Shown: piece after piece, positions 4,353 to 57,791 of the stretch
How the letters are laid out: the number at the start of each line of letters is the position of its first letter
Position numbering within the stretch: the first letter of the stretch is position 1
Source of the DNA: Octopus sinensis
Lineage: Eukaryota
NCBI RefSeq assembly: GCF_006345805.1
Contig: NC_042997.1
Span: forward strand, 209,808,001-209,872,000
Length of the DNA: 64,000 nucleotides
Direction of reading: 5' to 3'
Made by a program: the position numbers and the translations under genes
Notes under the pieces: model-generated
Seen by the model: only the letters and a program-made list of their open reading frames with translations
The model's database searches: none
What the model was told of the DNA's origin: nothing

Positions 4353-4415
4353 TAATAACTGAAGAGATGCTGGAGCAGATTTCTGCCCCGACATCCGAAA
4401 CTCAGAGTTTTATTA
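4353..4415 (+). ncRNA. Type-I hammerhead ribozyme motif, family A
   Basis: TAATAA-CTGAAGA-GATGCTGGAGCAG(attt)CTGCCCCGACATCC-GAAA-CTC(a)GAG-TT-TTATTA. Stem I is 6 bp, stem II is long, stem III is short, and the predicted cleavage triplet is GUU at 4407-4409. Confidence 0.75.
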
Positions 4416-4466
4416 TGGCAACCGAATAATAGTCACATATATATATATATATATACACACACACAT

Positions 4467-12062: not shown

Positions 12063-14960
12063 AAGATTTTCTGGGCAGGGAACACTGACGGGGTCGGGTG
12101 CATGGGTATACTTCTTGCGGAGAAATGGGTGGATAAGGTAATCGAGGTAGTCAGAGGATGCGACAGAATACTTAAGATTAGATTAGTGCTTCATCATGGA
12201 TTAGCAACCATTATCTCGGCCTATGCCCCTCAGCCAGGGCTACCCGATGGACAGAAGGACCAATTCTATGACCCCCCCCCTCTTGCGGACTACCTCGTTA
12301 ACAAATGACAGGGACCCTATCTTTGTGTCTGGTGACTTCAATAGACATGTTGGATGACATATAGGAGGCTACAGTTTTTGGGTCCCGCAATGAGGAGGGA
12401 ACCAGGCTGCTGGAGTTCTGCGGTACAAATGATCTTATGGTTTGCAATACTAACTTCAGGAAACCTGCCAGTCACCTAGTCACCTACCATTCTGGCAGAT
12501 ACACAAGCCAAATTGACTACATCCTCACCAGAAAAAGGGAAAGATGGCTGCTTATAAATGCCAAAACCTTCCCAGGTGAAGAATGTATTCCACAACATAG
12601 ACTGGTAGTTAGTGACTTCAGGATCAGGGCTAAGTGGATGATACCCAGAAGACAACCAGCATGGAGGAGAAGGGTCTGGAAGCTTAAAGATCCTGCGAAT
12701 GGACAGAGATTTAGACATATTACTCAAAAACTTTGCCGAAATAGAAGGGGATATAGCTTTACACGATATAGAAGACAACTGGAGGTTTCTACGGGACAAC
12801 CTGCTGAGAGCCACTGACCAGATCTGTGGATGGTGCAAAGTCCCCTCTCGACCCAAAATAATGTGGTGGTGGAATAATGTTGTTGACGGGGCTATTACAG
12901 AAAAGAAACAGGCTTGGAAGGACTGGAAGAATGGTGGTAGCAGGGAAGTGTATCCGACTGCCAGAAGGGAAGCTACAAGACAGGTTTATTTAGCCAGAGG
13001 GGAAGCAGATAAGAAAAAATTTGCCAATGTTCTGCGCCATGAGGACCAAAGACTTGAGGTATTTCGTGTTGCAAGACAGTTTGTGAGAGAGAATCGTGAT
13101 GTTGTAGGAAAGAAATGTGTCCGCATGGATGATGGTTCTCTTGCACTAAATGAGGATGCAAAGAGAGAGGTTTGGAGATGCCACTATGAAAGGTTGCTCA
13201 ATAAAAAAAATGAATGGGAGAAAGAGAGTCTGCCGAATGTCGACCCAACAGAGGGACCAGCTATCCAAGTTGACAGTACCTTGGTAGTTAAAGCAATTAA
13301 GAGTATGAAGAGAGGGAAAGCCCCTGGCCCATCAGGAATCACTGCAGAGATGCTCAAAATATCTGGCAGTGTTGGCTATAGCCTAGTCACCTATATAGTT
13401 AACCAGGTGATACACGAAGGAGTCATACCCAATGACTGGTGTAGCAGCACCATAGTCAACTGCTACAAAAGTAAAGGTGATGCTTTAGATACAAATAATT
13501 AGAGGTATCAAGTTGTTGGATCAGGTAATGAAGGTCATGGAGAGGGTCATAGCTCAACCAATTAGGGAGAGAGTCAGTTTAGATGAGATGCAGTTTGGGT
13601 TCGTGCCAGGGAAAAGCACCACTGATGCTATATTCCTGGTAAGACAGCTGCAGGAGAAATACCTAGCCAAAGATAAACCTCTGTATCTGGCTTTCATTGA
13701 CATGAAGAAAGCCTTTGACAGGGTCCCCCGATCCCTTATCTAGTGGTCAATGAGGAAACTAGGGATAGATGAATGGTTAGTGAGAGCCATGCAAGCCATG
13801 TACAGGGATGCTGTCAGTAAGGTGAGGGTTGGCAATGAGTACAGTGAAGAATTCAGGGTAGAGGTAGGTGTCCACCAAGGTTCAGTCCTCAGCCCCCTCC
13901 TATTTACTATAGTCCTCCAGGCAATAACAGGAATTCAAGACAGGATGCCCCAGGGAGCTCCTCTATACTGACAACCTTGCTCTAATTGCCAAGTCACTAT
14001 CAGAACTAGAGGAGAAGTTTCAGGTGTGGAAACAAGGATTAGAATCGAAGGGACTTAGAGTCAACCTAGCTAAAACCAAAGTCCTAATATGTAGGAAGGC
14101 AGACAAACCACAAATCCCATGAGGTAGATGGCCCTGCTCGATCTGTAGAAAAATCACAGGTAGAAAATCTATAAGATGCACCAAGTGTAAGCTATGGACA
14201 CATAAGAGGTGCAGCAATATCAAAGACAGTTTTTGTATGTGGCAGATGCTCAGGAGCAATAAACACTGAAAATGCTCTGAGACCAACTTCTGACACATTT
14301 CAGGGAGAAAAACTAGAAATAGTTAATAGTTTCCGTTACCTAGGTGACCAAGTCAGTAGTGGGGGGGGGTGCGCTGAAAGTGTAACTGCTAGAGTAAGAA
14401 TAGCCTGGGCAAAGTTTAGGGAGCTCTTACCTCTGCTGGTAACAAAGGGCCTCTCGCTCAGAGTAAAAGGTAGACTGTATGATGCGTGTGTACAAACAGC
14501 CATGCTACATGGCAGTGAAACATGGGCTGTAACTGCTGATAACATGCATAAGCTCGCAAGGAATGAAGCCAGCATTCTCCGATGGATGTGTAATGTCAGT
14601 GTGCATACTCGACAGAGTGTAAGTACCTTGAGAGAAAAGTTGGATCTAAGAAGCATCAGATGTGGTGTGCAAGAGAGACGACTGCACTGGTATGGTCATG
14701 TGGCAAGAATGGATGAGGATAGTTGTGTGAAAAAGTGCCACATCCTAGCGGTTGAGAGAACCTGTGGAATAGGTAGACCCAGGAAAACCTGGGATGAGGT
14801 GGTGAAGCACAACCTTTGAACATTAGGCCTCACCGAGGCAATGACTAGTGACCGAGTCCTTTGGAAATATGCAGTGCGCTTGAGAAGACCTGGCAAGCTA
14901 AGTGAGACCATAACCCATGACCTATGCCTGAGGTGTAACCAACCCACTTATGCATACCTT
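12063..14960 (+). mobile_element. RTE-clade LINE, 5'-truncated, decayed APE-RT ORF
   Basis: ORF fragments contain SAYAPQ, GDFN, SQIDY, GKAPGPSGI, QFGF, AFDRV, GVHQGSVLSP and WYGHVARM...GRPRKTW, with several stops and frameshifts. Confidence 0.95.
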
Positions 14961-15226
14961 TAACTATTACATTTGAATGGTGCTATTTACATGTCACCAG
15001 TACGGAAGCCAGGCAGCAATCACGCTCGGATGGTGCTCTTAGCGCTGCACTGGCACGGGTGCCAGTCATTGAATTTGTGAATTTGATTTTGATTTCACTT
15101 GCCTCAACAGGTCTTCGCAAGCAGAGTTTAGTGCAAGACTCATACACTGTTCACGTTCCTGATTCTATGTGTTATACATGCACATTTGATGAGTTGTAGT
15201 GCACCTGAGCTCTATACACAATTTTA

Positions 15227-15504
15227 TCATTTACAATTAACGGATATTTGTCGTCATCTTGTTTGTTGTTAACACAACATTTCGGCTGATATACCCTCCA
15301 GCCTTCATCAGGTGTCTTGGGGAAATTTCGAACTTGGGTTATCATTCCTCAGTTCCATTCCAGGAAGTGACCTGAATAATAATATCGAAAAATACCTTAG
15401 GAATTTCCCCAAGACACCTGATGAAGGCTGGAGGGTATATCAGCTGAAAAGTTGTGTTATCAACAAACAAGGTGAAGACAAATATCCATCAAATGTAAAT
15501 AATG
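15227..15504. mobile_element. Head-to-head foldback of a family-B hammerhead element (motifs at 15271-15316 minus and 15413-15458 plus)
   Basis: ~100-bp inverted arms, each reading GACAC-CTGATGA-A-GGCTG(gagggtatat)CAGCY-GAAA-NG-TT-GTGTT. Confidence 0.75.
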
Positions 15505-16046
15505 TAAATAATTCCTCATCTCTTAAATATAGAACTGAATTTTATTATTATTATTATTATTATTATTATATGAACACTGGCAGCGTATTGAGCAAATGGA
15601 AAAAACTAATGTAGGGGAAATAACTGTGTTTATACGAAATTAATGAGAATGTCTAAAAGAAAACAGGTGTGGAAAGGTGAGAATGTTGGTGTTCACAGGT
15701 GAGACGAGTGACAGTATGAGAGTTAAGCATTAAAACGATGATGATGATGATGATAATGAAAAATAGGATGAGGAGGAGGATGTAAAGCATAAACTGCAGC
15801 AATCTATTGCTAAACCAAAATTCTGTCTAATGATGTAACAGTTTGTCTCTGTCCCTTGTAATTTATTCAGTCACCCGGACAATTTGTTCTTTGCACCGAT
15901 ATTCCTTCTAAGCTGTGCATTTGTACACGCCCACACACGTTCTACAAAAAACATACAAAGGAAACAAATGTGTCTGCACACCAGGTTTTTTTTTTTAGAT
16001 GAAATCAGATTTATTTTTAAATTGAAGATGCCTATTTGCACTTACT

Positions 16047-16629: not shown

Positions 16630-17725
16630 TAATAATAATAATAATAATAATAATGAAATTATTGTATACAGTGCTCGGGTGCACCACAACTTGTCAGAAA
16701 GTGCATATTAAGTACATGCAGTAATGTAGAAATGTCTGGAAAGCGAACAATGTACGAGTCAGATACAAGCTTGTGTGTGTATGGAGGGGAGAAAATCAAG
16801 TGTAGTGTTGGCGAATCTCAGGAAGCATGGAAGTTTTGAAGGATGCAGTGCTCCGACAACTAACAACCGATGCCAGCAGTTTGTTCCACGCTTCAGCAAC
16901 TCTTAGCGTGAAAAAATGTTTCCTGAAGTCATGGGAGCTGTGCTGTTTTCTGACTTTGTAAATATGTCCACGGGTGTTAGATGGGTGGAGTTTGAAGAGG
17001 TGCTCAGAGTTATTGTTTGTGCGATGGTTGATAATTTTATGGGTGTCTGCCAAGTCAGCTGCCAGACGTCGGAGTTTCAATGTGTCCATGCCCAGGGAAG
17101 TAAGGCATTCAGGATATGGCAAATGCCTGATGGAGAGTATTCTTTTGGTTGCACGTCGCTGAACAGCTTCCAGACGATTGATGTCCTGGGCAAGATAGGG
17201 GTTCCAGACCGGTGATGCAAATTCCAGGTGAGGTCTTACCATAGCTATATGAAGCCGCAGATAGATAGCTGGGGAGCGGCTCACAAAGGATTTGGTGAGT
17301 GATGCCAAGACACCCTCAGCCTTCTTGACAATTTTAGCGATGTGTTTTGTCCAACGCAAATCACTGTCGACAATAACACCCAGGTCACGTTCACTTGAAG
17401 ACTTTTTGAGACTAGTGTTGTGGAGGGAGTAGGTGGACGCTGGGTTTCTCCTCCCAAAATGCATGGTGGTACATTTGTCCACAGCCAGCTTGAGTTGCCA
17501 GTCCATGATCCACTGCTGCATTGTGTCCAGGTCTGCTTGCAATAGAGATCCATAGTGTACAGGATTTGACCTCTTTATTTCGAGGTACAGCTTGATGTCA
17601 TCTGCATATTTCAGCACTGTGGCATTCTTTAAGTTGGCATCTATGTCATTAACATATGCAACAAATAAAAGGGGGCCAAGAACAGATCCCTGTGGTACAC
17701 CAGATGTCATCTCATATTCTGCTAG
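16630..17725 (-). mobile_element. CR1-clade LINE 3' fragment with 304-aa open RT C-terminal ORF (16796-17710) and (ATT)n tail
   Basis: SGVPQGSVLGPLLF, KYADD, ERDLGV, VRPHLEFASPVWNP, TRGH and RVAEAWNKL motifs. Confidence 0.93.
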
Positions 17726-17849
17726 TCTCTGCCGATCAGAAAAAGACTGGTTTTATCAGAGAAAGTCCAGCTGATCCCTTGCTGGTTGGCCCAGTGGAAA
17801 GACGATTCTTTCACTCACAAACAATGAAAAGAATATGTTTACACCTCAT

Positions 17850-20816: not shown

Positions 20817-23800
20817 TAACACTGTCCCAGGGTCTCTAGAGCCCATGCCTCCCACACCCTCAGGGTTGGCACCCTCAACGTTAGCACACTGAAAGGTAGG
20901 TCTGGTGAGATAGTCGAGATGCTTGAACGGAGATGTGTGGATATATGTTGCATGCAAGAAATAAGGTAGAGAGGAGGATCAGCTAGGTTCCTCACAGGCA
21001 AGGAACGCAGGTACAAGATTTTCTGGGCAGGGAACACTGACGGGGTTGGTGGCATGGGTATACTTATCGCTGAGAAATGGGTAGATAAAGTAATTGAGGT
21101 AATCAGAGTATGTGACAGAATACTTAAGATTAAATTAGTGCTTCATCATAGTTTAGCAACCATTATATCAGCCTATGCTCCTCAGTCGGGGCTATCCGAT
21201 GGACAGAAAGACCGATTCTATGACACTCTACTGCAGACTACCTCGTTGACGAACGACAGAGACCTTCTCTTTGTGGCTGGTGACTTCAATGGTCACATTG
21301 GACGACATGCTGGGGGCTTCCATGGCGTACATGGAGGCTATGGCTTTGGCTCCCGCAACGAGGAGGGAACCAGGCTGCTGGAGTTCTGCGATGCAAATAA
21401 TCTTATGATTTGCAACACTAACTTCAGGAAACCTACCAGCCACCTAGTCACTTACCGATCGGGCCAACATACCAGCCAAATTGACTACATCCTTGCCAGG
21501 CAAAGGGAGAGATGGCTGCTTATAAATGCCAAAACCTTCCCAGGTGAAGAATGTACCCCACAACATAGACTGGTAGTTAGTGACTTTAGGATCAGGACTA
21601 GGACAACCAGAAGACGACCAACATGGAGAAGAAGGATCTGGAAGCTTAAGGATCCTGCAAATGGACAGAGATTTAGAGACATATTACTTGAAGCCTCTGA
21701 CGAAGTAGAAGGGGATAGAGCATCACAGGGGGTAGAAGACAACTGGACGTTTCTAAGGGACAACCTGTTGAGAGCCACTGACCAGATCTGTGGCTGGTGC
21801 AAAGTCCCCTCTCGTCCCAAGGTAAGTCCCCTCTCGACCTAGAATAACGTGGTGGTGAAACAATATTGTAGACAGGGCTATTGGAGAAAAGAGACAGGCT
21901 TGGAAGGTCTGGAAAAATGGGGGTAGCAGGGAATTGTATCAGACTGCCAAAAGAGAAGCTAAGAGACAGGTTTATTTAGCCAGAGGGGAAGCAGATAAGA
22001 AAAAATTTGCCAATGTTCTGCACCGTGAGGACCAAAGACTGGAGGTGTTTCACGTTGCAAGACAGTGTGTGAGAGAGAATCGTGATGTGGTAGGAGAGAA
22101 GTGTGTTCGCATGGAAGATGGTTCACTTGCGCTAAATGAGGATGCAAAGAGAGAGGTTTGGAGATGCCACTATGAAAGGTTGCTGAATAAAGAAAATGAA
22201 TGGGATAAAGAGAGTCTGCCGAATGTTGACCCAACAGAGGGACCAGCTATTCGAGTTGATAGTTCCGTGGTAGCTAAGGCAATTAGAAGCATGAAGACAG
22301 GGAAAGCCCCAGGCCCATCAGGAATCACTGCAGAGATGCTCAAAATGTCTGGTAGTGTCGGCTATAGCCTAGTCACCCGTATAGTTAATCAGGTGATACA
22401 CAAAGGAGTCATACCCAATGACTGGTGTAGCAGCATAATAGTCAACTGCTACAAAGGTAAAGGTGATGCCCTAGATACAAATAACTATAATTAGAGGTAT
22501 CAAGCTGTTGGATCAGGTGATGAAGGTTACGGAGAGGGTCATAGCCCAACTAATTAGAGAGAGAGTTAGTTTAGATGAGATGCAGTTTGGGTTTGTACCA
22601 GGGAAAAGTACTACTGATGCTATATTCCTGGTAAGGCAGCTGCAGGAGAAATACCTAGCCAAAGATAAGCCCCTGTACCTGGCTTTTGTTGACATGGAGA
22701 AAGCCTTCGACAGGGTCCCCCGATCCCTTATCTGGTGGTCAATGAGGAAACTAGGGATAGATGAATGGTTAGTGAGAGCTGTGCGGGCCATGTATAGGGA
22801 CGCTGCTAGTAAGGTGAGGGTTGGAAACAAGTACAGTGAAGAATTCCGGGTAGAGGTAGGGGTCCACCAAGGCTCAGTCCTCAGCCCCCTCCTATTTATC
22901 ATAGTCCTCCAGGCAATAACGGAGGAATTCAAGACAGGATGCCCTTGGGAGCTCCTCTATGCTGATGACCTTGCTCTAATTGCTGAGTCGCTATCAGAAC
23001 TGGAGGAGAAGTTTCAGGTGTGGAAACAAGGATTAGAATCGAAGAGCCTCAGAGTCAATCTAGCTAAAACCAAAGATGGTTTTTGTATGTGGCAGATGCT
23101 CAGGAACAATAAACACTGAAAATGCTCTGAGACCAACTTCCGTCACTTTCCAGGGAGAAAAACTAGAAATAGTTGATAGTTTCCATTACCTAGGTGACCA
23201 AGTCAGCAGCGGGGGCGGGTGTGCTGAAAGTGTAACTGCTAGAGTAAGAGTAGCTTGGGCAAAGTTCAGAGAGCTCTTACCTCTGATGGTGACAAAAGGC
23301 CTCTCGCACAGAGTGAAAGGCAGACTGTATGATGCGTGTGTACGAACAGCCATGCTACATGGCAGTGAAACATGGGCCGTGACTGCTGAGGATATGCGTA
23401 AGCTCGCAAGAAATGAAGCCAGTATGCTCCGATGGATGTGTAATGTCAGTACTCATACTCGGCAGAGTGTAAGTACCTTGAGAGAAAAGCTGGACCTAAG
23501 AAGCATCAGTTGTGGTGTGCAAGAGAGACGTTTGCAGTGGTATGGTCATGTGGCGAGAATGGATGAAGATAGCTGTGTGAAAAAGTGCCACACCCTAGCG
23601 GTTGAGGGAACCTGCGGAAGAGGCAGACCCAGGAAAACCTGGGACGAGGTGGTGAAGCACGACCTTCGAACTTTAGGTCTCACTGAGGAAATGACTAGAG
23701 ACCGAGACCTCTGGAAGTGTGCTGTGCGCGAGAAGACCCGGCAGGACAAGTGAGTCCATAACCCGTGGCCTTCTACATGGGATGGAGCCAGCCTACGTAT

Positions 23801-25261: not shown

Positions 25262-25456
25262 ACAGTTCTATATTTAAGAGATGAGGAATTATTTATATTT
25301 GCCGGGTATTTGTCCTCACCTTCTTTGTTGTTAGCACAACATTTCGGCTGATATATGCTCCAGCCCTCATCAGGTGTCTTGGGGAAATTTCGAACCTGGG
25401 TTCTCATTCCTAAGGTATTTTTCAATGTTATTATTATTATTATCATTCAGGTCACT
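25262..25456 (-). mobile_element. Family-B hammerhead element, single copy (motif 25333-25378)
   Basis: Same body, (AAT)n linker and GACAC-CTGATGA-GGGCTG...CAGCC-GAAA-TG-TT-GTGCT motif as the 15.3 kb and 32.0 kb copies. Confidence 0.72.
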
Positions 25457-31345: not shown

Positions 31346-31769
31346 AAAAAAATGAATAACCAAAAAAAAAAACCAACAAAAAATATAAAAAAAAGACTAT
31401 TATTTGGTTAAAGTAGTGACCCATTGTTCGTCTAATGGAGCAAGACTGGGGTAAATGACCAGGTGTGTTTGTATTGAGCGTCTAATTAAATCAGAAACTA
31501 CCTGGTGTTGAGAAGGGAAAAAAAATCTCCGTTCCAAAACCAGGTTTCTTTTGATTTTAATCACAAACATTTCTGCCGTATTTAAATATGTCACAGACAC
31601 CATCGACAACAATGGAACCCGTCCGACAAGTTGCAACATTAAAAGCCTTTTGTATGTTGTTGCTATTATCATGATGTATTTTTCCTGCTTGATTTTCAAT
31701 GCCTCTGCAGCAAAATCTTTGACAAATATATTCAGGAATCAATCAATACTCAGAGAAGCTGGAATAAAT

Positions 31770-31876
31770 GGCATACGGCACAGTGGTTAAGAGTGCGGGC
31801 TACTAATCCCAAGATTCCAAGTTCGATTCCAGGCAGTGACCAGAATAATGATAATAATAATAATAATAATAATAAC

Positions 31877-31913
<37 letters not shown>

Positions 31914-32100
31914 GTAATAATAACATCGAAAAATATCTTAGGAATGAGAAGCCAAGTTTGAAATTTCTCCAAGACCCCTGATGAAGGCTGGAGGGTATAT
32001 CAGCCGAAACGTTTTGTGAACAACAAACAAGATGTGGACAAATATCCATCAAATGTAAATAATGGAAATAAATTTGTTGGACTCCTTATTCATTATAGAG
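31770..32100 (+). mobile_element. tRNA-headed SINE with (AAT)n linker and 3' family-B hammerhead motif (31973-32018)
   Basis: A box CGGCACAGTGG and B box GTTCGATTCC at 31776-31830, then (AAT)n, then CTGATGA-A-GGCTG...CAGCC-GAAACGTT. Confidence 0.75.
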
Positions 32101-33603
32101 TTTGGGGTTTTATCATAGGGAGAGGGAGGTGAGAGAGAAAGAGGAACAGGAGGTGAGAGAGAGAGAGAGAAATTAAAGTTGATTAAACAGATGAGTGGAA
32201 CTGAAGATATAAATAGTGATGCACAGGAATGGCTGTGTGGTAAAAAAGCTTGATTTCTAACCATAGGATAACAAGTTCAATTCCATTGTATAGCACCTTG
32301 GACAACATGTCACCATCTAAATGTGGTTGATGCCAGTGCCTCTTGACTGGCTCCTGTGCTGGTGGCACATAAAAAGCATTATTCCGACGTGATCAATGCC
32401 AGGGCCACATGACCAGCTTCCATGCCGAAAAAAGCACCCACTATACTTGGAGTGGTTGGCATTAGGAAGGGCATCCAGCAGTAGAAACTCTGCCAGATCA
32501 GATTAGAGCCTGGGGCAACCGCTGGCTTTCCATACCTCAATCAAACCGTCCAACCCATGCCAGCATGGAAAACGGACGTTAAACAATGATGATGATGATG
32601 ATATATATATATATAAATACATAGATATACACACAGATATATACACATGTGTATATATATATATATCATCATCATCATCGTTTAACGTCCGTTTTCCATG
32701 CTAGCATGGGTTGGACGGTTCGACTGGGGTCTGGGAAGCCTGAAGGCTGCACCAGGCTCCAGTCTTATCTGGCAGTGTTTCTACAGCTGGATGCCCTTCC
32801 TAATGCCAACCACTCCATGAGTGTAGTGAGTGCTTTTTACATGCCACCAGCACAGGTGCCAGGGGAGGCTGGCAACAGCCACGATTGGCTGGTGCTTAAA
32901 ATTTTTGGCTATTGAAGCAACCAGTAAATCATACATTTTTCATTTGAAAAGGGTTATTTGAAGATTGAAACTCATAACAGAGTAACTCACTGTAAACATT
33001 ATCATTAAAATAAAAATTATCCTCACAAAAAGCCATCTCTAATCATTTTTTCAAATATATATAAGTGTGTGTGTGTGTGTGTATTTACATGCATACATAT
33101 ATGTTTATATGTATATAAGCATGTACAAATGTGTGTGTGAGTGCACGTATGTTTGTGACTTCTTGTCCAGACGTCTCGCAATTGTCATAAATGAATGTCA
33201 GTCATGCGGGCAGCGTCATTCGCTTCCAACATTCTGCAAGAATATGTCTGGCCATAGGGATGCATTACCTTGCTGTGAGACAGGTAAAAAGTTGGGAAGA
33301 GCATCCAGCCATAGAGAATCTGTTGCAATAAACTTCATCTGACCCACACAAGCATGGAAAAGTGGACGTTAACATGATGAAGACAATGATGATGATGATG
33401 ATAATGATATATCATATTATCACCACCACCACCACCACCACTACCACCATCATCATCATTTCATTTCTGTCCTCCACGATGACATGGAATGGATATTCTG
33501 AGAGGTTCCAATAGGTCAAGGGACCATGTCTTGTGCCACTGTCTCAAACTGGTCATGGGTTTTTATTGTTAGATGCTTTCCTAGCACCACACTCCTCTCT
33601 TTC

Positions 33604-38433: not shown

Positions 38434-38958
38434 ATATATATATATAAATTAATAATATCAGGGTAATAAAGATTTTAGGATGCACTTCCTAAAGTCAACC
38501 ACTCCAAGAGTGAAATGGGTGCCTTCTATGTATCACTGGCACAGGTGCCTTTTACATGACATGGCATTGGCCACAACTGCAATTTCCCTTGGCTTGATGT
38601 GTCTTCTCAAGCACAGCATTTTGACAAAGGTCTCAGTCACTTGTCATTGACTCCATGAGGCCCAACATTTGAAATTCATGCTCCATCACCTCAGCCCATG
38701 TTTTCCTGGGTCTACCTCTTCCACAGGTTCCCTCCAAGGTTAGAGTTCAGCACTTCTTCAGGCAGTTGTCCTTGTCCATATGCATCACATGACCATACCA
38801 AGGCAGCCTCTTATGCCCAGTTTTTCTCTCGAGATGCTTACACTCTCTTGTATATTAATACTAATGGTAAGACAACAAAAGAATGAAAGAGACCTCGATA
38901 TTATGTAAATAGAGGAATTTATAGGCAACATAATTATGACAATTATTTTGTTGGCATA

Positions 38959-39017
38959 ATAAGACTCCGAGTTTCGGATGTTGGGGCGGAAACCTGCTCC
39001 GGCATCTCGTCAGTTAT
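38959..39017 (-). ncRNA. Type-I hammerhead ribozyme motif, family A
   Basis: The minus strand reads ATAA-CTGACGA-GATGCCGGAGCAGGTTTCCGCCCCAACATCC-GAAA-CTC(g)GAG-TC-TTAT, with an intact core and a GUC triplet. Confidence 0.78.
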
Positions 39018-39544
39018 CAAGGCAGAGCAGGTTTCTGCCTTGACACCTGAAACTCAGAGTCTTATTATGGCAACCAAATGATTGTCACATATTATATTAC
39101 AGATACATATATATACTCTTTTACTCTTTTACTTGTTTCAGTCATTTGACTGCGGCCATGCCGGAGCACCACCTTCAGTCAAGCAAATCGACCATGGGAC
39201 TTATTCTTTTGTAAGCCCAGTACTTATTCTATCGGTCTCTTTTGCCGAACCGCTAAGTGACGGGGACGTAAACACACCAGCATTGGTTGTTAAGCAATGC
39301 TAGGGGGACAAACACAGACACACAAACGCACATACATATATACATATATACAACAGGCTTCTTTCAGTTTCTGTCTACCAAATCCACTCACAAGGCTTTT
39401 GTCGGCCCGAGGCTATAGTAGAAGACACTTGCCCAAGGTGCCATGCAGTGGGACTGAACCCTGAACCATGTGGTTGGTAAGCAAGCTACTTACCACACAG
39501 CCACTCCTGCGCCTATATATATACATGTATATGTCTGGATGTAT

Positions 39545-41825: not shown

Positions 41826-41897
41826 TGCCGTGACCAGGATTCAAACCTAGGTTACCACGGCCTCAATGTGGGGTCCTCACTACTGGATGATCACAAC
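41826..41897 (-). pseudogene. tRNA-His-derived pseudogene (anticodon now GAG)
   Basis: The minus strand reads GTTGTGATCATCCAGTAGTGAGGACCCCACATTGAGGCCGTGGTAACCTAGGTTTGAATCCTGGTCACGGCA. This is collinear with invertebrate tRNA-His(GTG) but has CpG decay and damaged A and B boxes. Confidence 0.85.
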
Positions 41898-42815: not shown

Positions 42816-43336
42816 TGGAGTAAAGGTTATTTTCCAACATAACATAGCTGTCCTGGTTTAGGACAAATGTTGCTGTAATTTAGCCCCAGGAGACGTCATC
42901 TCCAGCTGGCTATATGACCCAATCTGTGTCCTTATATTTTTGAACAAGGGAATCTAGCACCCCCACTCAGCTCAAAGCAATATCTGTGTATCGCAATTTC
43001 CAGGTTATTTCCCTTCATCAGTACAGAATAATTGTTCAGCTAGAGGTGGTGCTGCCAAATTCCTGTTGAAAACTATACATTTCGAACAGGAATTTGGCAG
43101 CACCACCTCTAACTGAACAATTATTCTATGCTGATGAAGGGAAATAACCTGGAAATCGTGATACACAGATATTGTTTGAGCTGAGTGGGGGTGCTAGATT
43201 CCTTTGTTAAAAAAATGTAAGGATACAGATCGTGTTGTATAGCCAGCTGGAGACATTGTCTCCTGGGGCTAAATTACAGCAACATTCATCCTAAACCAGG
43301 ACTGCCATGTTATGTTGGCAAATAATCTTTACTCCA
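42816..43336. repeat. ~520-bp foldback (~255-bp arms, ~8-nt loop) carrying family-C hammerhead-like motifs (42983-43027 minus, 43125-43169 plus)
   Basis: The arms are reverse complements throughout, centred at ~43075. The inferred two-arm consensus is TCTGTG-CTGATGA-AGG(gaaataa)CCTG-GAAA-TCGCGA-TA-CACAGA. Confidence 0.85.
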
Positions 43337-49005: not shown

Positions 49006-50967
49006 GTAAGACATTTAAGTTTTGTTATTTTGTTGTGGAATAAGTGTGAGGTTATAGTTGTTGCTGTTGTCTCTTCTTCTTCTTCTTCTTCCAATCAGGG
49101 CTCATGCCATTAGCCACAAAGAATAATCTCTAATTCGAGCCTACTCTAAGCTACTAAGAATGCGTGTGGCAACTTCTAGGGTCTAAAAGTTTACCATACC
49201 ATGGTGGGTTACACCATGGTTCCTCTGCTTTGTGGCAGAAGTAGGCAGAAAGAGTGAGAGAAAGTTGTGGTGAAAGAGTACAGCGGGTTTCCCCTGCCGA
49301 AGCCTCATGGTGCTTAGGTGTTTTTGCTCAATAAACACTCACAATGCCCGGTCTGGGAATCGAAACTGCATTCTTATGACAGCGAGTCTGCTGCCCTAAC
49401 CACTGGGCCATTGCGCCTCCACTGTTGCTATTGTTCTGATTAACAGCTGTAGAAAAAAGGTGAGAAAATGGGAAGGCTGGCCAGAGAACAGGCAGGGCCT
49501 GTGGAACCATTTGCTGAGTTGCCCATTTCAGTCAGTCTGTGATGAGCACTGGTCACCTACATGACCTGTCTTGACTCATGAACTGAAGATTCCCAGCCAA
49601 CTGTGAGTCGTTGCAGCTTTTCTCTTCATGAACTTCGACGACACATTGAAAGTGAGAACTTCTTGCCATGTTCAGCAACCTTCATGTGCACTTGAGGACC
49701 GCCACAAAGCATTGTTCCCATGTAGGGACTGTGTGCACATATCTGGATTGAAAGGGTTGGCCTTGTCTGTTCTCATTCAGGTTATTGGAGCACTGGATAG
49801 AATGCTTCATGGTAATTGTGTGACTCTTTGTGCTCTGAGCTGAAATCCTGCCAAAGTCAAATTATTTTTCGTTGTTGCAAGGTTGACAAAAAAACGACTG
49901 ATCTAGGGTGGCTGATTGAGGGATTGTGAAAAGTTTGCATGGCATGTAAAAAGCACCATTCAAGTGTGGTCGATGCCAGTATAGCCTGACTGGCCTTCAT
50001 GCCGGTGGCATGTAAAAAGCACCCACTACACTCTTGGAGTGATTGGCGTTACGAAGGGCATCCAACTGTAGAAACATTGCCAGATCACACTGGAGCCTGG
50101 TGCAACCACCTGGCTCTCCAGACCTCAGTCAATCTGTCCAACCCATGCCAGCATGAAAAACGGATGTTAAACAATGATGATGATGATGTATCAGCCCCAG
50201 TTTTTGCATTCCTAAAGGTGCAGGTATAGCTAAAGGTGCAAAGGATTTGGTCAATGGAAATTGAATGAAGCCCATTTAGATCATTATGAAACAGAAAATC
50301 TGAATCATAGGATCAGGGACTGTCCCACGGCTCTGTTTTGAATGCTAGCATGGGTTCGGCAGTTCTTATTTGAAGTTACTGTTCTTCCAAATTAGTCAAG
50401 GGTTCAAATCTTGCATGTACACTCTATTTTTTTTTTTTTTTGGTCAAGGCACTGGTCAAAGAAAAGAGCAGATAACATTTATAAGTCCAAGGAGAATGGT
50501 CAAATTGATCTGACATGTTATGCTTAGACAGCTCTATGTTAACAACTGCAAAGAAAACGTACATTCTTTTTGATGTTATTCATCTTCAGTGATGAGGCAT
50601 GGCACAGTGGTTAGGGTATTCAGTTTATGGTCATAAGGCCATGAGTTCAATTCCCAGCAGTGTGTTATGTCCTTGAGCAAGACACTTTATTTCTCATTGC
50701 CCCAGTCCACTCAGCTGGCAACAATGAGTACTACTTGTGTTTCAAAGGGCCAGCCTTGTTACATTCCATGTCATGCTGAATCTTCCTAAGAACTACATTA
50801 AGTGTATGCCTGGCTGTGGAGCGCTCAGCCACTTGCTTGTTAATTTCACGAGCAGGCTGTTCTGTTGATTGGATCAACTGGAACACTCATCGTCATAACC
50901 GACGAAGAGCCAGTTGATCTTTAATTCCAGATGCTGAACAACTGTAATTTCTTAATTCTTTCTTCAG

Positions 50968-51465
50968 GGAGGTATTCTTGACCTACAGAAATGTGGATGG
51001 AACCAACTCGACCTTGATAACCATTTTATTTGTGTGAATCCCCTTGTATTCACAAAACTTCTATGTCGATTCCACATTGCAGAAGAAACCCAAGAATTTC
51101 GGTTAACGTCCAGTCACTTCTGGCCAGACAAACAAAACAAACCAAGTGTGGAGAGTTTGATCGAAGTCTTAGAAACGGTTCAAGTCCGTGGAATTATTCC
51201 TGAAACGTTGTTCCCAGTTTTGTGGCAAGAGTTCCCGACTTTGGATGAAAGTCAGGTGAAGCTTCTACTTCAGGTGTTTATCAGCCTGGGTATGTTGCTT
51301 CCGCTTCATTCCAGTCTACATTGTTCATCTTTAACAACATTATCGCTACCCACATATCCAACACTTTCACCCAAGAAATATTATTATGCGTCGGTCATTG
51401 ATTGCTTCAATGACCTTCGACCTCAGCTCAACTGGACTCAAAAACCATTCCCAGGAGATTTACAG
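50968..51465 (+). CDS. Roco-like gene exon: COR-A
   Basis: ttcttcAG|...CAG|GTaaga, 166 open codons. Contains FICVNPLVFTKLL, RGIIPETLFPVLW and LLLQVFISLGML, typical COR-A segments. Confidence 0.88.
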
Positions 51466-52382
51466 GTAAGAAGACTACACACACACACACACACACACAT
51501 CATCATCATTATCCTTATCATTATTTAACATTCTTGTTCTCCGCTGGCATGGGTTGGATGATTTGACAGGATCCGACAAGCCAGAGAACACCACAGAGTT
51601 CCAATGTCTTCTTTGAAATGGTTTCTACAGCCAGATGCAATTTGATGAAGTTCTGTGGCTTGTTGGATCTTGTTAAACAATCCAACCCATACCAACATGG
51701 AACAAGGCTGTTAAATGATATATATATATATATATATATATTGATATAAAAGAAAAATATAAAGCAAAACCAAATCACTTGTAACATTCTATTCTTTCTA
51801 AACCAAATCATGTTAAATTAATAAAACCTAGTCATTCCCGACTACCGAAAAAATCCCTGATTACCTTCCCTGTCTGGAACTCCATATTTCACAACATAGC
51901 GAAGACATGTCATGATATAGGTAAAGAAATTTGAGAAATTTTAAAAGAAAATATGAAACCAGTTATTTCTCCAAAAACAATGTTACTATACACAAAATTT
52001 TATGACATTTTTCTAACATAACGATTTAAATATATTATTTAACCATATAACACAAGCCTTCTGTAGTTTTTTTCACTCTATTTTGTCTTTTATACATCCA
52101 ACCACGTGCTTTCACATACCAACTCTCTCACCTATTTAAATTAAAACACACACACACAAGTATAGTGAAGTTTTCATAAAATTTCTGTTCCTGTATTGGT
52201 CTGCCATATTGACTTCCCAAACTCCGTACAAAAGGGTGTGGTCAACTGACCTTACTCCTCCAAATAGATTTGATCCCTGTGTCTGTTGTATGAAATATTG
52301 TCTCCTCCCTTCAGTCTGTTGATGGTACAGAGTTACGTCTCCCTCATGTCTTTATCCTGTGTCCTCATTTTTTAAGATTTAA

Positions 52383-52738
52383 CTAGCCCTGTGACCCGGC
52401 AACACCGGGTCATAGTGCTAGTGCATGCATATACAGCTGCGTGCGTGCGCACATACACGCAAGTACTGTCCAAATCTCTGACCAATCACAAACAGCTAGC
52501 TGGCATTCAATTGGCGTATCAAGTTTCGGGCATTTTGATTGGGTTTTGTATAGAAAATTCACAAAAAAGTCACTTCTATTGATTTTTTAATGGCTTTGTG
52601 GGGTGGACATGTAAAGATGTGCACGGCCACCTTTGGACGGTTTTGAATGACCATAGAAAATGCGATCCCTCTAACTGAAAAATTGTGGATTTGTATAAAG
52701 GACACACACACAGACATTTTGCCGTTTATATATATAGA
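52383..52738 (-). mobile_element. Non-autonomous Helitron (356 bp)
   Basis: The minus strand begins A|TCTATATATATAA and ends with hairpin GACCCGG-tgttg-CCGGGTC then CTAG|T. Inserted between A and T with no TSD. Confidence 0.85.
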
Positions 52739-53469
52739 TGATTTAGTCTAGAAGAAGGGGTTGTGATAAAGAAAGATCGTTGGGGTTGATTTTCATCTTA
52801 AACTGCAAAGAAAACAAGGATTGGAGGGGGGTTCCATTGGGTTGATGCTTCGGTAAGAAAGGGCTGAGTGTAGTGGGTAGGGGAACATAATATGAAAGCT
52901 GGGAGGAGAGATGAGTGAGCTGGGTGGAGAAGGAACACAATCATCAAGCTACAAAGAACAGAGGCCATTGTAGTAGCAGTTGAAAGACAAAGTGAGGTAT
53001 CAGTGTAACTGTAGGTTCCAGAAGTAGACTCCATGCCAATCATTCTTTTTTTCTTATATTTGTTTCAGTCATTTGACTGCGGCCATGCTGGAGCACCGCC
53101 TTTAGTCGAACAAATCGACCCTAGGACACTTATTCTTTGTAAACCTAGGACTTATTTTATCAGTCTCTCTTTACCAAACCGCTAAGTTACGGGGACATAA
53201 ACACACCAGCATCGGTTGTCAAGCGATGTTGGGGGGACAAACACAGATGTACAAACATATATATATACGATGGGCTTCTGTCAGTTTCCATCAACCAAAT
53301 CCACTCACAAGGCTTTTGTCAGCCTGAGGTTATAGTAGAAGACCCTAACCCTAACTTGCCCAAGGTGCCACGCAGTGGGTCTGAACCCGTAACCATGTGG
53401 TTGGTAAGTAAGCTACTTACCACACAGCCACTCCTGTTTTATTTCTGTATCCGTTTAGCTTTCTGGCCA

Positions 53470-53856
53470 CTTTCTCAAGTTCCTATCTCTACTGACCATT
53501 GTCCTTCCAGTGGCCTTGTTCTTATATCTTACTGACCAGAGATTTACCTCTCGAAAAAGCGGTTCTTCACTCCTGCTCCAGAGCGTCGGCTGCGGGGTCA
53601 CTCCGAAAAGCTCTATCTGTGACGATTTCATCTCAATCGAAGGAGAGGAGCTTTCTCCGTCCAGGTTGTGGATCCGTGGAATAAGCTGCCGGACGAGATA
53701 GTGAAAATACCAACGACCGCTCGGTTCAAAGTCTCTCTTGACCAGAAATGGCCTGAACTCTTTGCATGAACACCCTCCCTGTACATAACTCCATGTCCCC
53801 CTACATGGCCTTGCTTTTTGCTTTTTGAGCCAAAAAATTAACTAACTAACTAACTA
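53470..53856 (+). mobile_element. CR1-like LINE 3' end with (TAAC)n tail
   Basis: Translates LRGHSEKL...AFSVQVVDPWNKLPDEIV...FKVSLD, followed by a short 3'UTR and TAACTAACTAACTAAC. Confidence 0.75.
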
Positions 53857-53888
53857 TTGACCTTCAATGGATCTAATTTCCTTTTCAG

Positions 53889-54387
53889 ATCAGCTGCTGG
53901 TTTCGTTTCATCTTGGGTGATCCGCCAGAGGGTCTGATGCAGCGACTGTTGTGTTGCTGTCACCAAGCCATACACAAACAGGCAACTTACCAACACTTAT
54001 GGAAACACGGAGTGTTGATACGTGCTGGGGATGTGATGCTTTGTATAGAATACACATCGGGGAACATCAAACGCTTCCATATAACTGGTCGCATCAACAC
54101 AGACTTCCAAGGAAGCGAAGCCACAGCTATCCAGATGACCTGGCTTAAAATGGCTCCTCTTATACTGGCAGCCATTTCCATGCTCAGCTCCTTCCATGGT
54201 TTGATGTATAGTACCTACCTGGTGCCATTAGGTAAATATTTCTATGAACCCATTGAGACGGCCACCAATTCCACTCACCAACACGTCTTCTCAACTGGAA
54301 GCTGTCTACAAGCATGGACTCACAAAAAACCTTTGATTATTGAAAGAGAAAGAATTCTAAAAGTTGATCATCTTTTGCCATTTGAAG
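53889..54387 (+). CDS. Roco-like gene exon: COR-B
   Basis: cttttcAG|...G|GTaagt, phase 0 to 1. WFRFILGDPPEGLMQRLL...HLWKHGVLI matches the COR-B 'F..P.GL..RL ... W..G' pattern. Confidence 0.88.
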
Positions 54388-57123
54388 GTAAGTTCTGGTT
54401 CATTCCAATGCTGTCCAAATGTTCTTTAACCCCGGGCTAACCTGGATCCAGCAGATCTATGATCAAAGACATTCCATTTCAGTCTTGGACTGTCATGGTC
54501 TTTTATTTTTTAATCTTTTACTTGTTTTAGTCATTAGACTGTGGCCATGCTGGGGCACCATCTTGAAGAATTTCCATTTGAAGGATTCAACTGCAGTATT
54601 TTTTGTGTTAAGCCTGGTACTTATTCTGTCAGTTTTCTTTGCTGAACCACTAAGTCACTGGGATGTAAACACACCAATACCAGTTGTCAAGCAATGGTGG
54701 AGGACAAACTCAAACACCCACCAACCCACATATATATATATGTATATATATGACAGGCCTCTTTCAGTTTCTTTCTACCAAATCTGTTCAGCTTTGGTTG
54801 GCCTGAGGCTGTAGCAGAAGATGCCTGCCCAAGCTGCCATGCAACGGGACGGAACTCAGAACCATGTGGTTGGGAAGCAAGCTTCTTACTGCACAGTGGC
54901 ACCTGTGTCTATGTTACGACACATATAATTTATTACACGAGAAAATATCAACTTAGACACACAAGGTAGGAACCAGGTGAAATGAGTGAGTGGTTGGATA
55001 ATATAGATACCAGCTAAGCACTATCCGAACATGGCCAATGCCAGCCCCCCCTGATTGGCTCCCATGCCAGTGGCATGTAAAAAGCACTATCCGAATGTGA
55101 TCAATGCCAGGCTCGCCTGACTGGCTCCCCTGCCGGTGTCACGTAAAAAGCACCCACTACACTCTCGGAGTGGTTGGCGTTAGGAAGGGCATCCGGCTGT
55201 AGAAACATTGCCAGATCAGATTGGAGCCTGGTGCAGCCTCCCGGCTTCCCAGACCTCAGTCAAATCGTCCAACTCATGCCAGCATGGAAAACGGATGTTA
55301 AACGATGATGATGATGTGGGTAAGAGAGAAGACATGTAATGTGTTTGGTGGTGCAATTGAGAGATAAGTAATCTAGAAGGAGATGCGTGTTTTAATGAAG
55401 TGGAGCTGTTGGGCAGCTATCTTGATTTTTAGACAGCAGAACACAGTGTTTCTCAGCACCTTGCTACCTTGGCTAAAGCTTATTTTATTTCATTTTGAGA
55501 TTTGGTTTGCAAGATTCTTTATGTGAGTTCGTATGTTGAAGCATATTCTGTTGTGTCTGGAGAGAGTCATTCTCTTTTGGTGCCTTAATAATTTAACACT
55601 CACTGGTAAAATTTTCACTTCTTTCTTTTTTTTTTATTATTTTTCTAAAATTTTTGTTGCATCTTGCAACCTTTTCAATAGAAGACCAATGGAAGAAGCA
55701 GCATGGTTAGATCCCAGAACGTCCGATATTATGGAAGAGATAAGATCATACTGTAAGGTAATAGATCTCTCCCACCCGAACTAGTCTGGGAAAAAGAAGC
55801 GAAGTTGATAGAATAAAATATCAGGTTAATTAATACTGGAGTTGATTTAATTGACGAACCACTTCAGACTAAATTTGTGATCTTGTGTCTATGTCAGAAA
55901 CAAATATAATTCTGGATTCCAGCAGGGACATTCATGCATCTACTCTACAACAAAACACCTATATCTGTCCCCTCAATACCTTAAATCGTGCAATTGGCAG
56001 AAAGCCACAATCCCACAACACTACCCTCCACTCCCAGTTGAAGGGTTTTTGTCTTGCAAGGTACTTGGTGACCCTGTCAGTGCTGGGGCTACATAAAAAG
56101 TACCCTGTACACTCTGCGAAGTGGTCAGCATTAGGAAGGGCATCTGGTCATAGGAACCAGCCCAAAACAGACAGTGGAGCCAGGGACAGCTCCTGGCCTT
56201 GTCAGCTACTGCCAAACCATCCAACCCATACCAGCATGGAAATCGGATGTTAAATGATGATGATGATGATGTTTACGCTCTGACTTCAATCCTGTTCAGG
56301 ACCACATTGCCTTTCCTCACACTGGATTTGATGAAGTATCAGTCAAGTACCAGAGCCCTTGGACATTAACATTTTCCCCTAAAATTGCAGGCTTTGTGGT
56401 GGTGGGGAGCAATGTAATTGACTCTCACCTTCTCACTAATAATTACTCGTCTTGCACCAAAATTCAAAGCAATTATCAAAATGGTAAATGTAATAACAAG
56501 AACATGGAAGACAAGATTAAAAAAGAGTTAAAAGTTGTAAATTGTATTAATATAACGTCTCCTCACCGCCACCATCAACATTTAACATCCATCTTTCAAG
56601 CTGGTATGGACTGGACGGTTTGGAAGGACTCAAGGTGCCATAGGATTGTATTGAGTGCCAGTGTCAGCTTTGGCATAGTTTCTATGGCTAGATACCCTTT
56701 CTAATGCCAACCACTTTACAGAGTGTACAGGGTGCTTTTTACATGGCACCAGCCCTTGTGATGTCATCAAATAACTCACAAAACAAAGAGAAAAGACCTT
56801 CAACCGGGTAGGGTTACAGCTTTGAGGAAGGTGTCTTTATGTCAGGAGTTGAGAGGATAAAATATGATAGAGGGATAGTCACAGGAAGTCTTCTATACTG
56901 AAGATAGATGGCTACCCTGTATTATATAAGGGTGGGTGGGAACAACTTGAAAGAAGCCAATGATAGTGGTGATGAGGTGTCAAAATGTAATTCAACTCCG
57001 AAATACATATTAGGGTATTGTTAGTGGAAATATAGAAATATTTACCGATTTCTTGTGATTCTCAGATTGATGTAGTTCTGATTCAATATTGAACTTTGCT
57101 TTCTTTTTCTTTGTTGTTTCTAG

Positions 57124-57791
57124 TACAAAAGCCTGTTGGTTCCATCTCTGTTATGATGGAATTCATCCTCTCCAAGAAGGAAGAAATCTGCTCACAGAGT
57201 GAAGAAAGTCCATTGATCGTTGATAACTACTTAGCTGCAAGATATTCCACTCAGGTGGCAGTTCCAAAGACCAAAAAGAAAGCGACGCTCCAAATAAAAT
57301 GGAAATTAGACGAAGGAAATAGAAGTTCCCAAAGAACAAACAACAACATAGAGGGTGGAGGTTTGTCTGTAAAAGACAATGGTAAGAATTCTTGTACAGG
57401 TGTTGATAGTTCAAAGGGAACATTTCAGAACCTGAATGAAACCCAAACTGGGGTTTTGAATGAAAATGAAATTGATGGAAGAATAATGAATGGCCGAGTG
57501 ATGAGTGAGGAGAATGAGAATTCTATAGCTGTGAGGATTGCTTCTAGTTTTGTGGCGAGCATAATGGTAATGGCTTTAGCACAACACCTTGTGGAGGAAT
57601 CTTCAGTATCTGTGGGAAATATTGCTAAAATCACAGCTACCACTGCAACCGCAGTTCAGGCTGGTGACATCGATGCAGCCGTGAATGCAGTGTTTGATGT
57701 TGTAAATAAAGTTAACGACATGCTTGAGGTAAGACATTCTAGCCCCGACAATGAGGCCCCCCGCAAAAGTAAGTTTTGTATCCTAATGTAA
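57124..57791 (+). CDS. Roco-like gene terminal exon ending in polybasic + CaaX box (RKSKFCILM*)
   Basis: tttctAG| acceptor in phase 1, matching the previous exon. 221 further open codons to TAA at 57789-57791, with AATAAA at 57802. Confidence 0.8.

What the first reader, a model, noticed from the sequence alone, without database searches (positions are those of the whole stretch)
31770..32100. Chimeric SINE: tRNA-derived Pol III head joined to a Penelope-type hammerhead tail
Seen: a tRNA-like head with A and B boxes, an (AAT)n spacer, then the family-B hammerhead with the palindromic GAAACGTT junction. The copy at 15350-15410 keeps a B-box remnant (GTTCCATTCCAGGAAGTGACC) and the copy at 25456 keeps AGTGACC, so the fusion is a family trait. 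Known: SINE 3' ends normally come from a LINE partner. Inference: a SINE mobilised by Penelope-like RT/GIY-YIG machinery, or one whose transcript end is defined by ribozyme cleavage. This would be an unusual retroposon type.
Basis: partly seen in the sequence, partly recalled or inferred. Interest (0 to 1): 0.8.

Follow-up and report, generated by a model that had tools for sequence, protein, structure and literature searches.

The report
Penelope retrotransposon with captured tRNA promoter
This short repeat is the terminal repeat of a Penelope-type jumping gene that carries a tRNA-like piece just in front of its start codon and hammerhead-ribozyme motif; the tRNA piece likely acts as an RNA polymerase III promoter, which would explain why thousands of short, SINE-like copies begin right at it.

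Summary
The head, (AAT)n spacer and hammerhead motif are real and linked: 84 of 93 head-bearing arms run into the tail. The unit is not a separate SINE with a borrowed tail. It is the pseudo-LTR of a ~2.6-kb Penelope-type element in the same genome. Of 30 copies of the ORF end, 29 continue into the head. The 'tail' is the ORF's first ~50 codons (ATG at 31944). Copies end at two sites ~30 nt apart, well past the ribozyme cut site, and 66 of 93 have an inverted partner; both are Penelope signatures. The unusual part is the tRNA head. None of 49 distant Penelope relatives has one. 5' ends pile up at it (49 of 93, about 7x the neighbouring rate), and the sense strand has no TTTT shared among copies. 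Best reading (0.6): Pol III transcripts from the pLTR are copied by the element's own protein into SINE-like copies. A fold-back hairpin at the same spot is a real rival. Pol III transcription is untested.

The parts
31770..31843 (+). tRNA-derived head, positions +2 to +75 of the family head (+1 = first G of the acceptor-stem position)
   Evidence: A natural family copy (L215) matches the genome's own tRNA-Arg(TCT) at 45 of 69 aligned positions, z 8.9 against shuffles; the six isotypes compared score z 2.8-8.9. Acceptor and T stems are decayed.
31776..31786 (+). A box (decayed in this copy)
   Evidence: Sequence; column counts over 49 arms
31821..31830 (+). B box GTTCGATTCC
31844..31925 (+). 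(AAT)n spacer, variable in length; often interrupted by other elements
31944..32064 (+). First ~40 codons of the Penelope ORF (ATG at 31944; premature stop at codon 6 in this copy)
   Evidence: Translation. In natural copy L382 this frame stays open and aligns to protein P0003 residues 17-367.
31973..32018 (+). Minimal type I hammerhead motif: core 31978-31984, stem II 31986-31991/32000-32005, GAAA 32006-32009, palindromic ACGT, predicted cut after 32013; stem I broken in this copy
   Evidence: Column counts in 62 arms. Covariation with 5 distant PLE relatives: 94% of cells paired, 7 of 10 pairs with two-sided change.
32052..32064 (+). Short 3' end (ATG+~120); the family's long end lies ~30 nt further on
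   Evidence: 36 long, 34 short, 8 other of 78 arms
31760..31769 (+). Possible target-site duplication with 32063-32073 (one indel); uncertain because it overlaps the element's AT-rich end
   Evidence: family-wide, 4 of 21 plain copies have a repeat of 7 nt or more, against 3.3% of control pairs
15226..15352 (-). Second copy (tail only), left arm of an inverted pair
15351..15537 (+). Third copy: B-box remnant, short spacer, internal deletion, hammerhead, long end
25262..25456 (-). Fourth copy: AGTGACC remnant, spacer, hammerhead, long end

Best explanation
The unit is the pseudo-LTR of a ~2.6-kb Penelope-type retrotransposon, with a tRNA-derived segment between the end of one ORF and the start codon of the next, and that segment likely works as a Pol III promoter whose transcripts would be copied by the element's own protein into short SINE-like insertions. 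Shown: anatomy (ORF end, ~30 nt, head, (AAT)n, ATG, coding hammerhead, tail, ORF), partial tandems, inverted partners, two 3' ends, and a pile-up of 5' ends at the head. Inferred steps: (1) an ancestor captured a tRNA or tRNA-SINE head in its pLTR; (2) Pol III starts ~6-7 nt upstream of the head, about 14 nt before the A box, in a pLTR that lies in front of the ORF, and reads on because there is no TTTT; (3) the RT/GIY-YIG protein nicks AT-rich DNA and starts reverse transcription inside that RNA at ATG+~120 or +~150, as shown in vitro for the lizard element PAc; (4) the cDNA runs off the RNA's 5' end, often folds back on the palindrome there or joins a second cDNA, and leaves a ~250-350-nt copy or an inverted pair. 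The short copies lack the ORF sequence beyond the RT start, so they are probably mostly dead ends rather than a self-propagating SINE lineage. The hammerhead does not set the copy ends.
For: ORF-seeded loci: head follows in 29 of 30, tail in 27 of 30. The tail runs straight into the ORF N-terminus. Homologues carry RVT_1 and GIY-YIG; L068 hits RVT_1 at 1e-9. Genome-wide exact 24-mer counts: hammerhead-adjacent 4,448; B box 5,674; A box 3,221; at -28..-5 only 640; at about -166, 452. 5' ends of 93 position-ordered arms: 30 in +8..+54, 49 in -20..+7, 14 further upstream. Stop rate per nt is 0.008, 0.056 and 0.003 in those zones. Of the 47 pile-up arms that could be anchored, none carries forward sequence beyond -7, and 28 show no clear fold-back. 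66 of 93 arms have an inverted partner. No TTTT site is shared by more than 2 of ~20 covering copies anywhere in the unit (0.40 per kb, all private). 64 of 65 distant PLE ORF stretches have TTTT, at 3.0 per kb for those with T<=25%. 0 of 49 relatives has an A+B box pair after the ORF. PAc mechanism: PMC11167929.
Against: The pile-up coincides with the only GC-rich tight palindrome in the last 900 nt of the copies scanned (3 of 4 copies retain it), and 19 of 47 anchored arms are fold-backs there. Of 6 distinct upstream pLTRs that keep the head, 3 extend into the previous ORF end, so longer read-through templates were also used. The TTTT tests on single decayed copies were not significant (p 0.48-0.80; p 0.09-0.39), RTE LINE frames in the window are also TTTT-poor (5 in 4.3 kb), and the family is one evolutionary sample. 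RNA-seq gave equal depth on both strands, 76-79% of reads running into unrelated flanks, and no start site at the head. Paired arms of one insertion are not independent. The sample comes from one 63-Mb stretch of contig C1 and required an intact B-box motif.
Confidence: 0.6

Rival explanations
1. The short copies are ordinary 5'-truncated Penelope insertions made from long read-through RNA. The cDNA self-primes at the palindrome at -7..+5, and the tRNA head is a passenger from an old insertion with no promoter role.
For: The palindrome is unique in the last 900 nt; 19 of 47 arms are fold-backs; tandem read-through templates exist. Solo and inverted pLTR fragments are normal for PLEs (PMC4209133; PMC8557442).
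Against: 28 of 47 arms end in the same window without a clear fold-back, and none passes -7. A and B boxes are intact in the family while the cloverleaf stems have decayed. No TTTT is shared among copies.
Confidence: 0.26
2. The short unit is an independent SINE with its own master copies that borrows the Penelope protein.
For: Short copies outnumber ORF-linked ones about 5 to 1 (79 against 14 arms), carry the whole promoter, and could be transcribed alone.
Against: The variants tested occur in both classes at similar rates, e.g. G/A at +64 is 44/35 in short copies and 6/8 in ORF-linked copies. The nucleotides 5' of +1 in short copies match the PLE's own upstream sequence. PAc needed the first 172 nt of its ORF as template, more than the short copies hold. 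Only five sites were compared.
Confidence: 0.1
3. Hammerhead cleavage defines the RNA end, so the element spreads like a retrozyme or like schistosome Sm-alpha.
For: The motif is structurally conserved; a few tandem tails exist (L004, L014).
Against: 70 of 78 arms end 50-80 nt past the cut site; only one of 84 (L234) stops next to it. Copies are solo or inverted, not arrays. PAc insertion does not need hammerhead cleavage.
Confidence: 0.04

Closest known systems
Penelope/Poseidon PLEs, esp. PAc of Anolis (Frangieh et al. 2024, PMC11167929; parts 1-2 of 4 read)
   Same: Single RT + C-terminal GIY-YIG ORF starting in the pLTR at the hammerhead; two RT start sites ~30 nt apart about 110-150 nt into the ORF; AT-rich targets; partial tandems and inversions.
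   Different: Here a tRNA-derived A/B-box head and (AAT)n sit ahead of the ATG, most copies begin at that head, and the sense strand has no shared TTTT. No such head was mentioned in the parts read, nor found in 49 relatives.
Schistosome Sm-alpha / Sj-alpha SINE-like repeats (seen only through the review PMC6765202, passages; Ferbeyre 1998 not held)
   Same: Pol III-type promoter followed by a hammerhead in a short repeat.
   Different: Described as tandem units released by ribozyme cleavage, with no partner shown in the passage read. Here the unit is the pLTR of an ORF-bearing element and cleavage does not set the ends.
Non-LTR retrozymes (bioRxiv 10.64898/2026.07.22.740005, part 1 of 5 and passages; PMC7761336, passages)
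   Same: Short hammerhead-bearing units related to PLE pLTRs and thought to use PLE proteins.
   Different: Those are tandem arrays, described as lacking their own promoter; 'tRNA' and 'promoter' do not occur in the preprint's text.
TRIMp3: Helenus, Ajax, Cassandra (Kojima 2024, PMC10886601; abstract and outline)
   Same: Small-RNA-derived Pol III promoter inside the terminal repeat of a retroelement, possibly from a SINE insertion.
   Different: Those are non-autonomous LTR elements; here it is a PLE, and the promoter is in the ORF-bearing element itself.
Octopus tRNA-derived SINEs of Ohshima and Okada 1994 (PMID 7932738; not held; title seen in reference lists only)
   Same: tRNA-derived short repeats of what I infer is the same genus.
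   Different: Could not be compared. The short form may already be catalogued as one of these three families, or in Repbase/Dfam or the Zenodo library of PMC13282606, without the PLE link.

Membership tests
Penelope/Poseidon PLE | One ORF with RT and C-terminal GIY-YIG endonuclease bearing CCHH | tested here: met
   RVT_1 hit on L068; 42% identity over 548 aa to P0064, which has Pfam GIY-YIG; VYSIPCSCG..YKGET and later histidines in L072/L071. No direct Pfam GIY-YIG hit on the decayed copies.
Penelope/Poseidon PLE | No CX2-5CxxC linker between RT and EN (separates it from Neptune/Nematis; PMC8557442) | tested here: met
   By inspection of L075, L072, L071 translations
Penelope/Poseidon PLE | Partial tandems forming pLTRs, and 5' inverted copies | tested here: met
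   66 of 93 arms with an inverted partner
Penelope/Poseidon PLE | Optional 30-40-nt 3' tail | tested here: met
   36 long, 34 short of 78; same two ends in three other labelled organisms
Penelope/Poseidon PLE | Minimal type I hammerhead in the pLTR | tested here: met
   cleavage activity itself not testable
Penelope/Poseidon PLE | RT phylogeny inside the clade | not tested
   No tree with named reference elements was built
tRNA-derived SINE | tRNA-derived head with A and B boxes at the 5' end of short non-coding copies | tested here: met
tRNA-derived SINE | Transcribed by Pol III | not testable with these tools
   Only unstranded-looking RNA-seq was available
tRNA-derived SINE | 3' end from a LINE 3' UTR with poly(A) or simple-repeat tail | tested here: not met
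   The 3' part is the PLE ORF's 5' end and stops at two fixed sites
tRNA-derived SINE | Target-site duplications | tested here: inconclusive
   4 of 21 plain copies with 7 nt or more, control 3.3%
tRNA-derived SINE | Lineage separate from the autonomous partner | tested here: not met
   Variants shared between short and ORF-linked copies at the five sites compared; a small test
Non-LTR retrozyme / Sm-alpha type | Tandem arrays whose unit ends are set by ribozyme cleavage | tested here: not met
   Solo or inverted copies ending 50-80 nt past the cut site
Non-LTR retrozyme / Sm-alpha type | Circular RNA in vivo | not testable with these tools
   No suitable library

The most novel reading that the evidence does not exclude
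An autonomous, protein-coding retrotransposon that switched to RNA polymerase III: a captured tRNA promoter in its pLTR drives the whole 2.6-kb RT-endonuclease RNA, whose sense strand has been purged of TTTT terminators, and the same promoter throws off tens of thousands of SINE-like copies. It would be a SINE and its partner in one element, and a model for how Sm-alpha-type repeats arise.
Probability: 0.25. Interest if true: 0.85.

Novelty: new variant of a known kind. Interest (0 to 1): 0.62.

Why it matters
SINE partners are normally LINEs, and a Penelope partner for promoter-plus-hammerhead repeats has been suggested rather than shown in the papers I could read. Here the SINE-like unit can be traced base by base into the pLTR and first codons of an ORF-bearing Penelope element in the same genome. 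If the head is a working Pol III promoter, it gives a route from a captured tRNA to a SINE-like family without a LINE, and possibly a protein-coding element transcribed by Pol III. It also warns that some repeats filed as tRNA-SINEs may be Penelope pLTRs. The two RT start sites and inverted pairs give a large natural test set for the PAc internal-initiation model.

Tried and rejected
Rfam and ARAGORN at default call neither part; ARAGORN at a lowered threshold gives weak calls on family heads. Pfam gave nothing on three decayed ORF stretches and PDB only E 0.14 RT matches. Forty evenly placed 10-kb stretches held only 3 insertions (5 tail segments), too few for end statistics; they imply roughly 10^4 to 8x10^4 arms genome-wide. 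Run search: no RNA holder listed. Raw RNA-seq showed no start or end at the head and no strand bias, so it says nothing on Pol III. Codon-shuffle tests of TTTT loss on single copies were not significant. Minimum-energy folding of monomer or dimer did not return the hammerhead fold beyond stem II. An intron reading of the tail region was considered and dropped, because the unspliced frame is open from the ATG and matches P0003. The source tRNA isotype is not settled: only six isotypes were compared. No intact full-length ORF was seen among the copies examined (longest open frames 551, 434 and 401 codons); this was not an exhaustive search. Ten paper searches listed no paper describing a tRNA promoter in a PLE pLTR. 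Repbase, Dfam, SINEBase, the Zenodo library of PMC13282606 and all supplements were not seen. Earlier-findings look-ups gave one unrelated archaeal note and two blanks.

Full report
Observation. The element ends near 32064. The window has three more copies; two of them form an inverted pair at 15226-15537. The genome (G000, 2.72 Gb) is probably an octopus, which I infer from recalled repeat families and size, not from any call. Neither Rfam nor ARAGORN at default calls either part. A family head matches the genome's own tRNA-Arg(TCT) at 45 of 69 positions (z 8.9), with A and B boxes at tRNA spacing and decayed stems; only six isotypes were compared. The hammerhead fold is supported by covariation between 4 window copies and 5 distant PLE relatives that I picked because they showed the motif: 94% of cells paired, 7 of 10 pairs with two-sided change, against 19-50% for slid controls.

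Linkage. 27 of 29 head-seeded loci run into the tail, and 17 of 29 tail-seeded loci have a head remnant within 420 nt. The rest are inverted pairs, tandems, or have another element in the spacer. In a sample taken in genomic order from a B-box pattern (90 loci, 98 arms; 5 arms from near-identical duplicated loci dropped), 84 of 93 arms have the tail within 1 kb.

What it belongs to. Upstream of the head in L017 lies the 3' end of an RT-endonuclease ORF. Of 30 loci found with that ORF end, 29 continue into the head and 27 into the tail. A near full-length broken copy (L091) has an inverted pLTR, then a partial tandem tail running straight into the ORF, then the ORF and a full pLTR. The tail is coding. 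From the ATG at 31944 the family reads MRTQVRNFPKTPDEGWRVYQPKRCVNN, and natural copy L382 carries head, spacer, ATG and an open frame aligned to the 847-aa protein P0003 from residue 17 to 367. The 9-nt repeat variation in the tail keeps frame. Relatives carry RVT_1 and GIY-YIG. [quoted passage not shown] No tree was built.

Penelope signatures in the short copies. Of 78 scored arms, 34 end at ATG+~120 and 36 about 30 nt further on. PAc starts reverse transcription 111-118 nt into its ORF and at a second site that gives the optional 30-40-nt tail, cuts both strands at AT-rich DNA, and does not need hammerhead cleavage (PMC11167929, parts 1-2 of 4). 66 of 93 arms have an inverted partner. These ends lie 50-80 nt past the cut site, so the ribozyme does not define them. 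The same two ends appear in contigs of three other labelled organisms.

What is unusual. None of 49 distant relatives with enough sequence after the ORF (of 80 loci fetched; 28-48% identity) has an A+B box pair there, while 20 show a similar hammerhead. Exact 24-mer counts fall from 3,221 at the A box to 640 just 30 nt upstream, then only to 452 at about -166; the patterns differ slightly in degeneracy. 5' ends of the 93 arms: 30 in +8..+54, 49 in -20..+7, 14 further up. Stop rates are 0.008, 0.056 and 0.003 per nt. Ends scored at -13..-20 are fold-backs; of 47 anchored arms none carries forward sequence beyond -7. That wall lies ~14 nt before the A box, the usual place for a Pol III start (established knowledge). 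Across 52 kb of aligned copies covering the whole unit, TTTT occurs at 0.40 per kb and never in more than 2 of ~20 covering copies. Only 1 of 65 relatives' ORF stretches lacks TTTT, and those with T<=25% have 3.0 per kb.

Results against the reading. The wall coincides with a GC-rich palindrome that is unique in the last 900 nt, and 19 of 47 arms fold back on it. Three of six upstream pLTRs that keep the head extend into the previous ORF, so longer templates existed. TTTT tests on single copies were not significant, and RTE frames in the window are also TTTT-poor. RNA-seq showed symmetric depth and reads running into flanks, with no start site. Target-site duplications are seen in 4 of 21 plain copies.

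Mechanism and odds. That the unit is the pLTR of this Penelope family is shown (about 0.97). That Pol III starts at the head and supplies the template for the short copies is inferred (0.6); hairpin-driven truncation gets 0.26, an independent SINE lineage 0.10, and cleavage-defined ends 0.04. Short and ORF-linked copies share variants at the five sites compared, and PAc needed 172 nt of ORF as template, so the short copies are probably mostly dead ends. Copies are 85-94% alike and no intact ORF was seen, so the burst looks old.

Prior art. Minimal hammerheads in pLTRs, with solo and opposite-strand copies, are known (PMC4209133, part 1 of 4 and passages). Pol III promoter plus hammerhead is known from schistosome SINE-like repeats (review PMC6765202, passages). 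Retrozymes as PLE derivatives: preprint, part 1 of 5 and passages; PMC7761336, passages. Pol III promoters in terminal repeats: Helenus/Ajax, abstract. Octopus repeat surveys PMC13282606 (parts 1-2 of 3), PMC8967140 and PMC4758252 (passages) do not describe this link in what I read. Ten searches listed no paper on a tRNA promoter in a PLE pLTR. The 1994 octopus SINE paper, the repeat databases and all supplements were not seen, so the short form may already have a name.

Verdict. A new variant of Penelope elements that behaves like a SINE generator. File it as a PLE pLTR, not as a SINE family. Interest 0.62.

Noticed in passing
L011, L014, L019, L182, L186, L231 (spacer region): A different LINE sits inside the (AAT)n spacer in several copies; its ORF ends ...LLGTAHILRRTLSIQ*. 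It resembles Dong/R4 elements that target TAA repeats (label recalled; Dong-R4 is listed as active in PMC13282606). This explains several head-only or tail-only copies.
   Followed up: partly
L381-L384, L388, L393, L394: Copies that start in the pLTR, run into the ORF and stop 350-870 nt past the usual end with no 3' pLTR; L383 is an inverted pair of two such arms. They suggest further internal RT starts.
   Followed up: partly
L386, L389, L390, L396: Copies where the first 470-1050 nt of the ORF are joined directly to a pLTR (direct in L389, L390, L396; inverted in L386): internally deleted derivatives with different breakpoints.
   Followed up: partly
window 4280-4420, 38950-39070, 42870-43330: Two other hammerhead-like repeat families, each as inverted pairs (cores at 4359 +, 39013 -, 43021 -, 43131 +), with no tRNA head seen by eye. 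Useful controls for the 5'-end test.
   Followed up: no
window 41826-41897 (-): Decayed tRNA gene, Rfam RF00005 35.1 bits, unrelated to the head; looks His-like (recalled).
   Followed up: partly
window 12365-14819, 20970-23753, 16796-17752: Broken LINE ORFs, RTE-like and CR1-like by recalled motifs; used as controls.
   Followed up: partly
window 32219-32600 and families D2-D19: At least three other abundant short-repeat families, one starting 150 nt after the element; not part of it.
   Followed up: no
L183, L184, L188, L189; L206, L207; L064-L067: Near-identical insertions with identical flanks at several places: segmental duplications or assembly redundancy.
   Followed up: partly
L103:5080 in run X22: 342 RNA reads share one flank joined to an ORF-linked copy, so a single host transcript appears to carry that copy.
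   Followed up: no
window 50956-57791 (+): Several open frames that look like exons of a host protein gene; not identified.
   Followed up: no
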